From the NCBI RefSeq assembly GCF_032062105.1, contig NW_026935419.1:372001-436000 (forward strand): 64,000 nucleotides of DNA. Reading direction: 5' to 3'. Positions 45,401 through 57,400 of this stretch are shown one piece after another (the stretch's first letter is position 1; each line of letters opens with the position of its first letter). Source of the DNA: Saccostrea cucullata (taxonomy: Eukaryota). A program made the position numbers.

Positions 45401-48400
45401 ATTTCAGCGAATTTTTATTTTTATTTTGATAAGGGTATTCAGACACACCTAGAAAAACACATAATAATACACAAAATACACCATCCTGAAACCAAGCGCC
45501 TATGTATAAACCGAGGTCCCGTGTCGCAGTAGGTGCTGGCTCGAAAAAGATCCCTCGCTGCTAGGACAAAATTTGTAGCTCTCCACCGGCAAGTGGTGGC
45601 GTCTCCAAATGAGTAAAAAAAATCTCGAGAGAGACGTTAAACAACATACAATCAATCAATCTACCTGATCAATACATGGGGATCATGGGATGTGTGGCCG
45701 CTCAACAGGGGATGTTTTCTCCTCCTCGATACCTAATCCCACCTCTGGAATTTCCGGGGGTCCGTGTTTTTTGCCCTCTGTATATATTGCAATTCAATAA
45801 TTATGCTTCAGTCTAGAATCATCTTCGCTAGCCAAGTGTTGGATTCGTTTCCCTCATTGCAAGACATAGTACACGAGACATTTTATGTACGACTGTCTTG
45901 GATTATGCCGGTGTCGCAATCGCAACTTGTTCTTCGTGTGTCTTTTGTATTTTTAGCTGCAGCTGGTGGTTTCGTGTTGTGGGACGCCGTAACGGAAAAG
46001 AGGGTAAAGAAAAATATATTTTCGATAATTCCTATAATTTGTAATTTTTGTAATAAATGTCCCGATGAAAATTTTAACTTTATTCCGAATTTCCTCTTGC
46101 AAACTAATATGACCTCTCTCTGTATAGAGCATTTACACGTAAATGAGCCTTGAATGGCTTGATCATTTGAGTTTAAAATGTGTTCTTGTCGAGCAAAAAT
46201 ACTTGAATAAACCCATGTGTCTTTTAATTTCAAGTGAACACTGTTCCAGTTGTGGACGGCTCGAATTTCCTCGCAAAATATAAGCAACACATCATCTATA
46301 CTCTAGTCTACTGAGGCCTGTTCAACAGAGCAAACGTTCGCGAGCGTTCGCTAAAATTCCTTATACCTCCAATAGAAAAGTTCACGAGCACTCGCCCTGT
46401 TGAACAGGCCTCAGCTGGTCACTGGTCAGAGACCCAAAAGAGTTAATGTGATAGTAAGGCGTCTGTCTGTTTGTCTGTCCGTCTGTAAACAATTTTATAA
46501 AACATTAATCCTCTGACAGTTTTAGCCTCAGTCTGCTTTCAAAGTAACTTCAAGTTGGCACACAAATACACTAAGCTACATAATTCTGTGTATCAACTTG
46601 ATTTCCATGAAGGGTGTTGTCATGGTTACTGAAAATTGAAATTTCTATGAAATACTTTCAAAATGTTACTACTCCTATATCTGCAGACTGTTTATTATTA
46701 TAATATGATTACATGTACTTGTTTGCTATTATTCGTCTGATCATTGCAGTATAAAGTAGCTTGGTTTTTTTCTTTTCTTTTCCCTGATATTGTATTATTA
46801 TTACATTATATGTGATGCTTATATTCCATTGTGAACTATACCATGCAGTATTCCTAATCTGAGAACTTTTACAAGCGAGGATCAAGTAAATTTTGCACCT
46901 GATGCAAACATTACCTGTTAATGTTGTTATAATCATGATTATATTGTTTGTTTTTAATTGCATATACCCCCTGAGGGCTGCCCTTGATTGGTGAATAAAT
47001 GAAATAAATATAATGCTACAGATCCCTTAATGCGAATAAGGTGCTATATATGGCTCAATTTTCTGTGCACTGATGGGGAGAATTTTTTCACTTTCCAGAA
47101 TTGGTCAATCAAGTACCTTTTACTCCCTAATTCTAGAAACATTATTTATGTAAGCAACCTGTGTATTGTATCAACATCCAGACCCTTTATAGTTGTCTAT
47201 ACAGGCCATAAAACTTGCTTGTTTTGAATGTTCTGCTATCAGACACAACATTCAAATCAAGAGAGTATATTGGCACTAGACAACTGTAAGGGTTTCAGCA
47301 GCCAAGGAGGGCAAAATCTACAAGTTGATTCACAATGTGTCTTGAATTACTTTCACTCATTTATATTGAAGAAGCATCAATAATTTTTCCTACTTTTTTC
47401 AGCGAATGAGAGACGGGGTACTCAGAGATATAGAAAAAATGCAACAAAGGAAACAGAAATCTGAAGATCAACCAAAAGAAAACTAACACAAATTGGGGAG
47501 AAGAAACAGTCATAAAGGAAACTCACAAAACAGAGCATAAACAGGTATCCTGGTAATCTGAATGACCTGAACAATAGAGAACTTCATGTTGAAGAAAAAT
47601 GAGACTGAAACCATAATTTTCAAGGAAATGTATAAAACCTGCCTCTAAGACCACTACATAATAGAAGAAGAGTTGTGATGGAAGAGACAGCTTTCTAAGA
47701 ACATTGTAATTGATTGAGGTTACATGAAATCTGACCATGACTTTAACTGTCTTTTGTTTAACGGGTTTTATTTAATGAGTGCTTATTAAACTAATTGTTT
47801 ATATTTGTTTAGTTGGTGTTTTTCCTATTTATTTATTGTAAATGTTTTTCTCACATTTTTTTTTACAATGAGTTCATTGGATGATAATAAAAACAAAAAC
47901 AAGATGTGTTTATGAAACACTATGCACCCGATGGCAACAAAGTTTGGAAAAAGCTATTTTTAGCATTAAGGTCACAGTCAAGGTCACAAGGTCATTGACC
48001 TTGGTGTCATTTGAAAGAACCTGAATAGTGGAGTATGCATACCAAATATGATGTCTCTATTTTTCATGGTTCAAAAGTTATGGTGAAGGTTAAAGTTTGC
48101 AGAAAAAAGCTATTTTTAGCATATAGGCCACAGTTAAGGACACAAGGTCATTGACCTTGGTGTCATTTGAAAGAGCTTAATTAGTGAAGTATGCATACCA
48201 AATATGAAGTCTATATCTTTCATGGTTCAAAAGTTATGATGAAGGTTAAAGTTCGAGAGAAACAAACAAACAAACAGAACAGTCAGACAGACAGACAGGA
48301 CAAAAACAATATACGCCCTTGATCTACCAATCCGGGTGCATAATAAAGATTCAGTATGTTATGCTAGTTTTTTACGGAGTATATGCTGCAGCTATATTTT

Positions 48401-54400: not shown

Positions 54401-57400
54401 TTTCAAGCTTATAATCAGCTTGTGTATTTTGAAATACAAACTTGTGCGAATATCCAACAATACCAATTCAATCTTCCTTTTGTAATGTATGCCTATAACA
54501 CATAACAGTATTAAACATTGAAAAATAAGTAGCTTGTGCTTATGTGTTTATAATTCATTAACTTTATATAGTATGTAGAATACAAGGCATAAACTTAATA
54601 GGTTTGTAACACAATATTACTTTTTTTTTTTTACCTCCGCCACTAGTAAGTTTACATGTGTATGTATGTATATAGCTTATAATTAATTCAGTCAAGATGA
54701 CTCTAGCTAAGCTTAATAATTTTTCTCAGTGTTCTTTTTATTATGATTGAGTATTATAATGCTTATTTATTTTCTTTTTTAAATTTTATTTTGCAGCACA
54801 TGAATACAGTGATTGGCAGATTAGAGAAAATTACAACAGGTAGAAAAGGTATGAGAGCTCAGCAAAAGGAAGAGTACCAGAAATGGAGAGAGGAGAAGAA
54901 GCTAGAGAATAGAAGGAAACGAGAACTTCAGGTAGTGAACCAGTCAGGGGGATCTTCCTAATTTCAGTCACTGTTCTACTGTTCTTGTAGCTGCAGATCC
55001 GAAGCTGGCTAGTCTGAAAAAAAAGAATTTGGATGGATGAAATGAGAGTAGTAGTGTCACCCAATAAAAAAAAAATTTTATTGTGCACAAAAAAATGCAG
55101 TGCTCCTCGATTTATGTAGCTTTCTGGTCATCCATCCCAATTTTATTTATATCAGCAAGCTAAATGTACAGTTTTGCAGCTACCGTTATTGCTGCATATC
55201 TCAAGGATTTCAATGTAATACATGTATAGCATTTTCTATACTTTTCTGCTCTTTAAATTTTTTATCTGGCATGTGATTGGCATGATATATATGTAGCTTC
55301 AGGGATTTAAAAAAAATAAATTATGCTCAAATACAGAACTTGAGTGAAGAATTTTCGACAAGATCGAGGAAGAAATGATCAAGTCTGCATTTATAAAATT
55401 ATTTTTTAAATAATTTAAATGTTTACAAACATATGTTGCCCTCCTTCTTTATTTTTTCCCTATACAAACATCACTTACTTGGAAATTTGTTAAAATCTAT
55501 TTCATGTGAAGATGATACATGTATCAATACATGTGTAGAAATATCTACCAGTAAATGAAAAAAACAAAAATTTCAGATTTATTTTTTCAAACTTATTTTT
55601 TCTTTGGTTTTACTTAATGTTAAATTTTAAAATTGAAAATAAATATTTTATATACAAATGAAATATGTAATATTTAACACCTAATACATGTCTTTTTATT
55701 TTGAATCTTCAATCATTGTGTCAAGGGCAATAACTCTATTAGCATTACCCAAGTGTTTGTAATATTCATTTTATGTCCTGATGTATGAAGAGATAGGAGA
55801 TGTTATATTGATAGACACTTTTACCTAAAATGCATCAATTCACATGTTCTGCTATTTTGTCAGCTTAATACAAATCCTGCTCCAATTTTTTTTTCATTTG
55901 TATTTTGTAACATTACTGGAAAGGATATTTTGTAAGGTAGAAAATGTGAGTTTTATAAGTTTTATTGGACTGTTTTTTGTTATTTTTTAAAAATAATATT
56001 CTAGTCCTGCATTACCTCTGAGGGCCCTTAATAGCAAGTCATGCCTTGTCCCTATTTCAATTATTTTTTTCTCCATTTGGTAAAGATAGGGGACATTAAA
56101 TATCAATTCATTTGTCCATCTGTCACAAAATGTCTACTAAATAGTCATAACTTTTGAATGAGAAAAGATGAGGCTTTCATATTTTACATGTATGTTACCT
56201 GTGACAAGATTTTTTATAATTTACTGTGCCTAAACCCCGTGATATTGAAGTTTATCTAATTTAAAAAAAAACTAGAGGTTCTGTGAGCAATGAGCTCACT
56301 AAATGATATCCCCCGCCTCCCATATGAATATAATGGCAGTATCCATGTTTTGCTCTGGAAAATCCAAAATATATGTCAGATCAAAAAGTAAAATAGGAGG
56401 TGCACAATGGCAATATGTAATGAAGAATCTGTGAAAGTTTCATTAAATTTCCTTCAGTGGTATGAGAGGAGTTGCGGATAAGAGAGGGTACCCCAAAGCG
56501 TAACAGACGGACAGAGGGATGGAAATACCGATTACTATATACCCTCCCACTTTTCAAGCGGGGGGGTATAATTAACACTGGTTATAACTTTTGAATGAGA
56601 TAAGATAAATAATTACCTGTTACAAGAAATCTTTGAGTATGCTTTGATTTTTACCCTTAATCTTTACATTGAAGTTTGATTTAATTTAATAGGTTATTTG
56701 TAGTGGGAATACATGTGATTTTTAAAGGAGAGAAGATGGGTTTGGGCATTTATATATGACAAGTGTATTTTCTGTGACAGGAAGTTTCCAAAGTTTATGA
56801 GATATTTGACCTGTGACCTTGACCTTCAAGTTTGACCCAATTTTTAAAAAAAATCATTGCTGCCAACTTTTGAAAGAGAGAAGGGAGGGCATGTCATTCA
56901 TATTTTACAGGACAAGACATTTCCAAAAGTACTGTAATTTTTAAATCCTATTTTCTTGACCTTGAAGTTTTATGTATTTTTTTTTTATTTTTAACATTGC
57001 TGATAGCTTTTGAATAAAAGAAGACATGGCATATCATATTTGACATGGGCTTTACCTGTTTAAAGACCTCTCTGAACATACTCTGGTTTGTGACTTCATG
57101 ACCCTTACGTTAAAGATAACTTAGTAGTTAGTCTTGTTCATTTTTTTTACATTGTCAATACCTTTTGAAAAAATAGGGATTTCATATTTTTCAGGTACAT
57201 TACTTAAGACAACATCTTTCAGAAAAGTTTATCATTTTTGACTTCATAACCTGGACCTAGAAGTTTGAAGGACACACAACAGATAGTTACAATATGCCAT
57301 AGATAAATGAATCCCAACCACTAAAAGACAAAAAGGAAGGGCCACAATTCTTTGAGTCTGTTGTTCCCCACTTTCTGTCCATCTGTCTGTCTTTCTGTCT

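What the first reader, a model, noticed from the sequence alone, without database searches (positions are those of the whole stretch)
45905..54961. Tandem pair of PET117 and a highly diverged PET117-like microprotein gene
Seen: two small 2-exon genes 6 kb apart on the same strand, each with a hydrophobic N-terminal helix and a phase-0 intron after codon 33 or 32. Their junctions align (AGGFVLWDAVTEKR|RMRDGVLRDIEK vs AGAFLYDIGTGKK|HMNTVIGRLEK). The canonical copy has a short tail (60 aa); the diverged copy has a long charged coiled-coil tail. Established: PET117 is a small complex IV assembly factor acting with COX15 and is typically single-copy. Inference: an old duplication with sub- or neofunctionalisation. 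Both genes are easy for annotation pipelines to miss.
Basis: partly seen in the sequence, partly recalled or inferred. Interest (0 to 1): 0.68.

Follow-up and report, generated by a model that had tools for sequence, protein, structure and literature searches.

The report
One oyster PET117 gene, doubtful neighbour
The first small gene is an ordinary oyster copy of the mitochondrial assembly factor PET117, while the second "PET117-like" gene is only an untested pairing of two open frames that shows no measurable likeness to PET117.

Summary
The four open frames and their GT/AG borders are at the stated coordinates. All searches were done exon by exon; the joined 60-aa and 86-aa models were never made or searched.

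Gene A (45905-46003 and 47403-47486) is a PET117 orthologue. Its second-exon peptide alone matches Pfam PF15786 (E=0.001, profile 30-54 of 67). It follows a hydrophobic first exon in the two-exon layout reported for human PET117 (PMC5429353).

Gene B (53785-53880 and 54797-54961) matched nothing:
- No Pfam family at E<=10.
- No BLASTP alignment to gene A's exons at E<=100.
- Neither B exon is among the 15 listed window hits of gene A's peptides.
- Smith-Waterman scores are equalled by 50 of 2000 (exon 1) and 938 of 2000 (exon 2) shuffles.
- 0 hits among 1.84 billion representatives.

Models of this build occur at 21 loci in the window, against about 9 in shuffled windows. A crude codon score makes B's exon 2 look coding-like, but purine-rich repeats score alike.

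The only demonstrable PET117 duplicates are two truncated 5' copies upstream, in a LINE-linked tandem triplication.

The parts
45905..46003 (+). PET117 exon 1: 33 codons from the ATG, with a hydrophobic N-terminal segment; donor GTAAAG follows at 46004
   Evidence: Sequence and translation. Kyte-Doolittle 17-residue maximum 2.11. No Pfam hit on its own.
46004..47402 (+). PET117 intron, phase 0, 1399 nt
   Evidence: GT at 46004 and a pyrimidine run plus CAG ending at 47402.
47403..47486 (+). PET117 exon 2: 27 codons plus TAA, carrying the conserved core of the family
   Evidence: Pfam PF15786 PET117, E=0.001, 19.6 bits, residues 1-25 on profile positions 30-54 of 67. It is the only match to this peptide in the window at E<1; the next hit has E=2.8.
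53785..53880 (+). Candidate 'gene B' exon 1: 32 codons from an ATG, hydrophobic, donor GTAAAA. Unverified.
   Evidence: No Pfam family at E<=10. Atlas neighbours are short unnamed clusters; the nearest named ones are mostly bacterial sensor N-termini. Codon score -0.043 per codon, reached by 6.7% of 554 background frames.
54797..54961 (+). Candidate 'gene B' exon 2: 54 codons plus TAA, a purine-rich charged tail. Unverified.
   Evidence: No Pfam family. No candidate among proteins of 29-95 aa. 0 hits at E<=0.001 in 1,835,955,588 representatives. Best atlas score 0.75. Codon score +0.334 per codon, but no codon periodicity.
42151..42210 (+). Truncated copy of the PET117 start: first 20 codons, then 2 further codons and a stop
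   Evidence: tblastn 20 of 20 identical residues. Reading shown.
44024..44083 (+). Second truncated copy of the PET117 start: first 20 codons, then 2 further codons and a stop
   Evidence: tblastn 20 of 20 identical residues. Reading shown.
40339..45964 (+). Tandem triplication of a unit of 1873-1880 nt. Each unit holds the last ~600 nt of the LINE ORF2, ~1.2 kb of PET117 5' flank and the first 60 nt of the PET117 coding sequence. Units: 40339-42211, 42212-44084, 44085-45964.
   Evidence: Self-blastn. Units 1 and 2 are identical at 1873 of 1873 positions; unit 3 is 97.67% identical to each.
37407..40936 (+). LINE retrotransposon body (endonuclease and reverse transcriptase, split over several frames) directly upstream of the triplicated unit
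   Evidence: Pfam Exo_endo_phos E=1.6e-05; RVT_1 E=3.6e-09 and 5.5e-19. ORFs listed.
47948..51242 (.). Arrays of ~129-156-nt tandem repeats filling much of the space between gene A and candidate gene B
   Evidence: Tandem Repeats Finder rows. No Pfam family above its cut-off in the 10 frames of 55 aa or more scanned between 48243 and 50779.

Best explanation
The window is oyster DNA and carries one complete PET117 gene (gene A).

**Gene A.** Its product would be a 60-residue single-pass protein. From work on the yeast and human proteins, it should sit at the matrix side of the mitochondrial inner membrane, bind the heme a synthase COX15 and stabilise its oligomers, and so support cytochrome c oxidase assembly. 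That mechanism is inferred by orthology and was not tested here.

**Gene B.** The second gene, 6 kb downstream, is most likely not a PET117 relative. More likely than not it is not a protein-coding gene at all. It looks like a short hydrophobic frame that happens to end at a GT, paired with an 84-codon frame kept open by a purine-rich tract.

**Real duplicates.** The only true PET117-derived duplicates in the window are two truncated 5' copies (promoter region plus 20 codons). They were made by a tandem triplication that also copied the tail of a neighbouring LINE.
For: **Gene A**
- Exon 2 peptide matches PF15786 at E=0.001 over profile positions 30-54 of 67.
- None of the 51 other frames of 55 aa or more from 46.5-64 kb matched PET117 at E<=0.1.
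- Splice sites are canonical and the intron is phase 0.
- Human PET117 is reported as a two-exon gene of 81 aa (PMC5429353, passages).
- Mitochondrial location and COX15 binding come from PMC3334569 and PMC7140478 (passages).

**Gene B is not PET117-like**
- 0 Pfam families for either exon at E<=10.
- No BLASTP alignment at E<=100.
- Shuffle counts of 50 of 2000 (exon 1) and 938 of 2000 (exon 2).
- Neither B exon is among the 15 listed tblastn hits for A's two peptides.
- The one cross-hit, B exon 2 against 47434-47550 (E=0.012), is out of frame with A's exon 2 and runs past its stop.

**Gene B is not shown to be a gene**
- No relative in 29-95 aa proteins or in 1.84 billion representatives. 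The collection does hold oyster proteomes.
- The same build arises at about 9 loci per shuffled window.
- There is no codon-position periodicity (p=0.77), and the frame stays open in 3.3% of first-order Markov resamples of the exon's own composition.

**Duplicates:**
Against: **For gene A**
- The Pfam score of 19.6 bits is below the 27-bit family cut-off, because only one exon of 27 residues was scored.
- Exon 1 alone gave no match.
- A search with exon 1 found no protein of 22-72 aa.

**For gene B as a chance pairing**
- Exon 2 has the best codon-usage score of all 554 background frames. It ranks 4th of 1159 frames window-wide, behind only three training exons and above a real CDKN3 exon.
- Its G+C (0.43) is above that of the 2-kb window around it (0.305).
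- Exon 1 scores better than PET117's own exon 1.
- Both splice sites are canonical, the ATG has A at -3, and an AATAAA lies about 100 nt after the stop.
- The real window holds more such models (21) than the shuffles' mean of 8.9; 19 was the highest of 30.

**Limits on the negative homology results**
- The control with gene A also failed.
- A 54-residue query needs a near-full-length match to reach E<=0.001 in so large a library.
- The codon model was trained on only 525 codons of one gene rich in charged residues.
Confidence: 0.62

Rival explanations
1. Gene B is a real but unrelated small membrane protein gene. It would be either lineage-restricted (possibly arisen de novo) or a member of another microprotein family too short to detect one exon at a time. 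It would encode a single N-terminal helix anchoring a charged helical tail.
For: - Highest codon score among 554 background frames and 4th of 1159 frames window-wide.
- G+C of the exons (0.38 and 0.43) is above that of the 2-kb windows around them (0.336 and 0.305).
- Canonical donor and acceptor.
- AATAAA at 55063.
- The exons are not part of any repeat found in the window.
Against: - No homologue in any search.
- No codon periodicity.
- Purine-rich low-complexity stretches score as high on the same codon model, for example 27597-27674 at 19.2 against 19.3.
- About 2.4 such models with a long second exon are expected per shuffled window.
Confidence: 0.22
2. One reading: gene B is an old, highly diverged duplicate of PET117 that kept the membrane helix and the intron position but evolved a new charged tail.
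For: - Same strand, 6 kb apart, with the same two-exon phase-0 build and intron after codon 33 versus 32.
- B's exon 1 is the best-scoring of the chance-type first exons against A's exon 1. The alignment spans the full length, with 50 of 2000 shuffles reaching it.
Against: - The conserved core that defines the family lies in exon 2, and B's exon 2 shows nothing there: no Pfam match at E<=10, no BLASTP alignment, and a Smith-Waterman score at the shuffle mean (938 of 2000).
- The exon 1 score exceeds the next chance candidate by only 2 points.
- There is no DNA similarity between the two loci.
- In a listing of 8 of the 21 papers holding both 'PET117' and 'paralog', no title or abstract start describes a PET117 paralogue (listing only).
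Confidence: 0.06
3. B's exon 2 is transcribed, but as part of something else: an alternative last exon of PET117 (both introns are phase 0, so exon 1 of A could join it in frame), an exon of an unrecognised longer gene, or a non-coding RNA.
For: - Phase compatibility can be read from the sequence.
- The acceptor carries a pyrimidine run.
- The codon score is coding-like.
Against: - Skipping A's exon 2 would remove the only part that matches the family.
- A's exon 2 ends in a stop, and I saw no plausible internal donor on reading it.
- No other coding-like frame or Pfam match lies on either strand between 46.5 and 64 kb.
Confidence: 0.07

Closest known systems
PET117 (Pfam PF15786; yeast Pet117, human PET117)
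   Same: Gene A has a small size, a hydrophobic N-terminal segment and two exons. Its conserved core after the helix matches profile positions 30-54. Human PET117 is reported with two exons and 81 aa (PMC5429353).
   Different: Gene A's model is shorter: 60 aa against 81 in human and 107 in yeast. It ends before profile positions 55-67. Gene B shares only the general build and fails every sequence test.
Other single-pass mitochondrial or membrane microproteins with a charged tail (for example PET100, SMIM20/MITRAC7, ATP synthase subunit e; names recalled, not from a call)
   Same: Gene B's predicted build, an N-terminal helix followed by a K/R/E-rich tail of about 50 residues, is the common build of these families.
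   Different: No Pfam family of any kind matched either B exon at E<=10. Membership of any of them is untested for the joined protein, which was left out.
Tandem segmental duplications bounded by a retrotransposon
   Same: Three head-to-tail units of 1873-1880 nt start inside a LINE ORF2 and end inside PET117 exon 1.
   Different: Two units are 100% identical, so collapse or expansion in the assembly cannot be excluded. The mechanism was not studied.

Membership tests
PET117 (gene A) | Match to the family profile PF15786 at or above its curated score (27 bits) | tested here: inconclusive
   Exon 2 alone scores 19.6 bits, E=0.001, on profile 30-54 of 67. Exon 1 alone has no match. The whole protein was not scored because the joined step was left out.
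PET117 (gene A) | Hydrophobic N-terminal segment before the conserved core | tested here: met
   Kyte-Doolittle 17-residue maximum of 2.11 in exon 1.
PET117 (gene A) | Small two-exon gene, as reported for human PET117 | tested here: met
   Two exons with canonical GT/AG borders. Human gene: two exons, 81 aa (PMC5429353 passage). Equivalence of the intron position was not tested.
PET117 (gene A) | Mitochondrial location and binding to COX15 | not testable with these tools
   Known for yeast and human proteins (PMC3334569 and PMC7140478 passages).
PET117 (gene B) | Match to the family profile PF15786 | tested here: not met
   No family at E<=10 for either exon peptide. HMMER's filters drop most matches above about 0.1, and the joined protein was not scored.
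PET117 (gene B) | Detectable similarity to the PET117 in the same genome | tested here: not met
   No BLASTP alignment at E<=100. Shuffles reach the score in 50 of 2000 (exon 1) and 938 of 2000 (exon 2). Neither exon is among the 15 listed tblastn hits.
PET117 (gene B) | Hydrophobic N-terminal segment and two-exon phase-0 build | tested here: met
   Kyte-Doolittle maximum 2.45; donor and acceptor present. The same build is found at 21 loci in the window and about 9 per shuffled window.
Protein-coding gene (gene B) | Evidence of transcription, splicing or conservation | not testable with these tools
   No read data or oyster genomes were available. Protein collections gave no relative, but the control with gene A also gave none.

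The most novel reading that the evidence does not exclude
Gene B is a real oyster gene descended from PET117. It would have lost the conserved core and gained a long charged tail, giving oysters a second, neofunctionalised partner in cytochrome c oxidase or heme a handling.
Probability: 0.06. Interest if true: 0.55.

Novelty: already known. Interest (0 to 1): 0.15.

Why it matters
As it stands, the finding amounts to locating the PET117 gene of an oyster, a small gene of a known family with a known role. That helps annotation but is not surprising.

If gene B were shown to be expressed and conserved, it would be an unannotated membrane microprotein. If it also derived from PET117, it would be the first paralogue of a factor whose own mechanism is still thin. 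None of the 8 listed papers (of 21 holding both terms) describes a PET117 paralogue in its title or abstract start (listing only).

The triplicated 5' end of PET117 next to a LINE is a small example of how a retrotransposon neighbourhood can multiply a promoter and start codon. It matters mainly as a warning for gene prediction and assembly checks at this locus.

Tried and rejected
**Searches that led nowhere**
- Word-indexed homologue search with B exon 2: no candidate among proteins of 29-95 aa.
Sent again with 8 read-through codons, it found no candidate among proteins of 22-72 aa. An in-frame ATG at 45803 would give a 94-aa reading that this length range would miss, so the result says little.
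- Full HMMER scan of 1.84 billion representatives with B exon 2: 0 hits at E<=0.001.
- ESM Atlas. B exon 2: best score 0.75 to DUF2992, with recognition below the useful level. B exon 1: 0.95 to short unnamed clusters, and the nearest named ones are mostly bacterial sensor N-termini, which shows only that it looks like a membrane helix.
- PDB sequence search. B exon 2: two chance-level rows, E=0.79 and 1.1. A exon 2: none.
- Rfam on the whole window: nothing.
- Pfam on 51 frames of 55 aa or more from 46.5-64 kb: nothing above a cut-off, so no hidden larger gene was found around B.

**Inconclusive tests**
- Codon periodicity has no power at these lengths. True exons of similar size also give p of about 0.2-0.4.
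- The codon-usage score rewards purine-rich low complexity.

**Considered and rejected**
- B as part of a repeat family. Only 53026-53458, upstream of B exon 1, has a second copy in the window, at 35091-35508 (78%).

**Not done**
- Any search, fold or look-up with the joined exons of either gene.
- Paper supplements were not opened.
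Full report
**Scope and rule followed.** Both gene models are spliced. The joined 60-aa and 86-aa proteins were never assembled, printed, searched or folded. Questions that need the whole protein therefore stay open, namely the Pfam score against the family cut-off and a profile-profile comparison.

**What is in the sequence.**
- Gene A has an ATG at 45905. It is followed by 33 codons up to 46003, a GTAAAG donor, a 1399-nt intron ending in a pyrimidine run and CAG, and then 27 codons and TAA at 47403-47486.
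- Gene B has an ATG at 53785. It is followed by 32 codons up to 53880, a GTAAAA donor, an intron ending in ttttgcag, and then 54 codons and TAA at 54797-54961.
- Both introns are phase 0 and both first exons are hydrophobic (Kyte-Doolittle maxima 2.11 and 2.45).
- B's second exon has 14 K+R and 7 D+E in 54 residues.
- The window has no N.

**Organism and surroundings.**
- A 280-aa exon at 20148-20990 on the minus strand is 96% identical to an F-box/WD40 protein of Saccostrea echinata. It is 80-83% identical to those of Crassostrea gigas, Ostrea edulis and C. virginica; 23 proteins had E<=0.001. The window is from an oyster close to, but not identical with, that species' record.
- The first 560 residues of that protein map to 21438-16730 on the minus strand.
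- A CDKN3 exon lies at 24185-24520 (E=5.7e-16). A LINE with endonuclease and reverse transcriptase domains lies at 37407-40936.
- Between genes A and B, 47948-51242 is largely tandem repeats of about 129-156 nt.
- Rfam finds nothing in the window.
- None of the 51 frames of 55 aa or more from 46.5 to 64 kb reaches a Pfam cut-off.

**Gene A is PET117.**
- The 27-residue exon 2 peptide alone matches PF15786 at E=0.001 (19.6 bits, residues 1-25 on profile positions 30-54 of 67). The score is below the 27-bit cut-off, as expected for less than half a protein. Exon 1 alone gives no hit.
- None of the 51 control frames hit this family at E<=0.1.
- Exon 1 has 33 residues, about the 29 profile positions that lie before the match. 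That fits the ATG at 45905 as the start, although an in-frame ATG at 45803 would add 34 codons.
- Human PET117 is described as a two-exon gene of 81 aa with no BLAST relatives (PMC5429353, passages).
- The human protein is mitochondrial by GFP tagging and was missing from gene catalogues for a time (PMC3334569, passages).
- Yeast Pet117 (107 aa) lies on the matrix side of the inner membrane, binds Cox15 and stabilises its oligomers (PMC7140478, passages).

By orthology, gene A should do the same. This is inference.

**Gene B against PET117.**
- Neither B exon matches any Pfam family at E<=10.
- BLASTP of exon 1 against exon 1 and of exon 2 against exon 2 returns no alignment at E<=100.
- The Smith-Waterman score for the exon 1 pair is 26, reached by 50 of 2000 shuffles. 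For the exon 2 pair, which in PET117 carries the defining core, it is 24, reached by 938 of 2000.
- In a tblastn of A's peptides against the whole window, B's exons are not among the 15 hits listed for either query.
- B's exon 2 does hit 47434-47550 (E=0.012). That frame is shifted by one base from A's exon 2 and runs beyond its stop, so it is a match between lysine- and glutamate-rich stretches.
- The two loci share no DNA similarity.

**Is gene B a gene?**

Against:
- No relative among proteins of 29-95 aa.
- None among 1,835,955,588 representatives at E<=0.001.
- Atlas and PDB give nothing beyond a generic membrane helix and chance rows.
- The same kind of two-exon model occurs at 21 start sites in this window, 8 with a second exon of 50 codons or more. 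Thirty shuffled windows average 8.9 and 2.4.
- There is no codon-position periodicity (p=0.77).
- The 54-codon frame stays open in 3.3% of resamples of its own composition.

For:
- I trained a crude codon model on 525 codons of the F-box gene. It gives B's exon 2 +0.334 bits per codon, above all 554 background frames.
- A window-wide best-segment scan ranks it 4th of 1159 frames, behind three training exons and just above a real CDKN3 exon.
- B's exon 1 scores above PET117's own exon 1.
- G+C of the B exons (0.38 and 0.43) exceeds that of the 2-kb windows around them, 0.336 and 0.305.
- An AATAAA lies at 55063.

Caveats:
- The training exons are rich in charged residues, and plain purine repeats score equally high, for example 19.2 at 27597-27674.
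- The periodicity test has no power at this length.
- The homology negatives are weak. The control search with gene A's exon 1 also found nothing, though only proteins of 22-72 aa were searched.

I put the chance that B is a real coding gene at roughly 0.3, and the chance that it is a PET117 paralogue at about 0.06.

The first 20 codons of PET117 occur twice more, at 42151-42210 and 44024-44083 (20 of 20 residues identical).
- They belong to a head-to-tail triplication with units 40339-42211, 42212-44084 and 44085-45964.
- Each unit holds the last ~600 nt of the LINE ORF2, about 1.2 kb of PET117 5' flank, and the first 60 nt of the coding sequence.
- Units 1 and 2 are identical at 1873 of 1873 positions. 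Unit 3, which continues into the intact exon 1, is 97.67% identical to each.
- The truncated copies read 22 residues and then stop.
- Exon 2 has no second copy; its next-best tblastn hit has E=2.8.

So the window holds one complete PET117 and two dead 5' fragments. Whether the two identical units are real or an assembly effect could not be tested.

**Verdict.** Gene A is an ordinary PET117 orthologue, and nothing shows that gene B is PET117-like or that it is a gene at all. Read support for the 53880-54797 junction and synteny in other oysters would settle it.

Noticed in passing
window 40339-45964: Tandem triplication of a unit of 1873-1880 nt. Each unit joins the tail of a LINE ORF2 to the 5' flank and first 20 codons of PET117. 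Two units are 100% identical and the third is 97.67% identical. The two truncated PET117 starts read 22 residues and stop.
   Followed up: yes
window 45225-45504 (also 41468-41742 and 43341-43615): A stretch of about 280 nt in the PET117 5' flank matches its own reverse complement at about 90%, like a foldback or MITE-type element. It is present in all three tandem units.
   Followed up: no
window 45803: An in-frame ATG 34 codons upstream of the PET117 start, with no stop between. An annotation pipeline choosing the longest frame would call a 94-aa protein. This may explain why the length-limited search found nothing.
   Followed up: partly
window 47948-51242, 33836-34126, 26381-26662: Repeats of about 129-156 nt whose frames read as lysine/valine-rich peptides. 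They form arrays between genes A and B, in both orientations around 50.5 kb, and similar-looking frames occur elsewhere in the window.
   Followed up: partly
window 53026-53458 and 35091-35508: Two copies (78% identical) of an unclassified repeat. One ends about 330 nt upstream of candidate gene B's ATG and is followed by long G and C runs at 53480-53590.
   Followed up: no
window 16730-21438 (-) and 24185-24520 (+): Exons of an F-box/WD40 gene (96% to a Saccostrea echinata protein; only residues 1-560 of 1080 were located in the window) and an exon of a CDKN3 phosphatase gene.
   Followed up: partly
window 18352-19392 (-): A tandemly repeated frame, in which a motif of about 55 aa recurs at least four times, lies inside an intron of the F-box gene. 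Its Pfam rows look like artefacts of the repetition.
   Followed up: no
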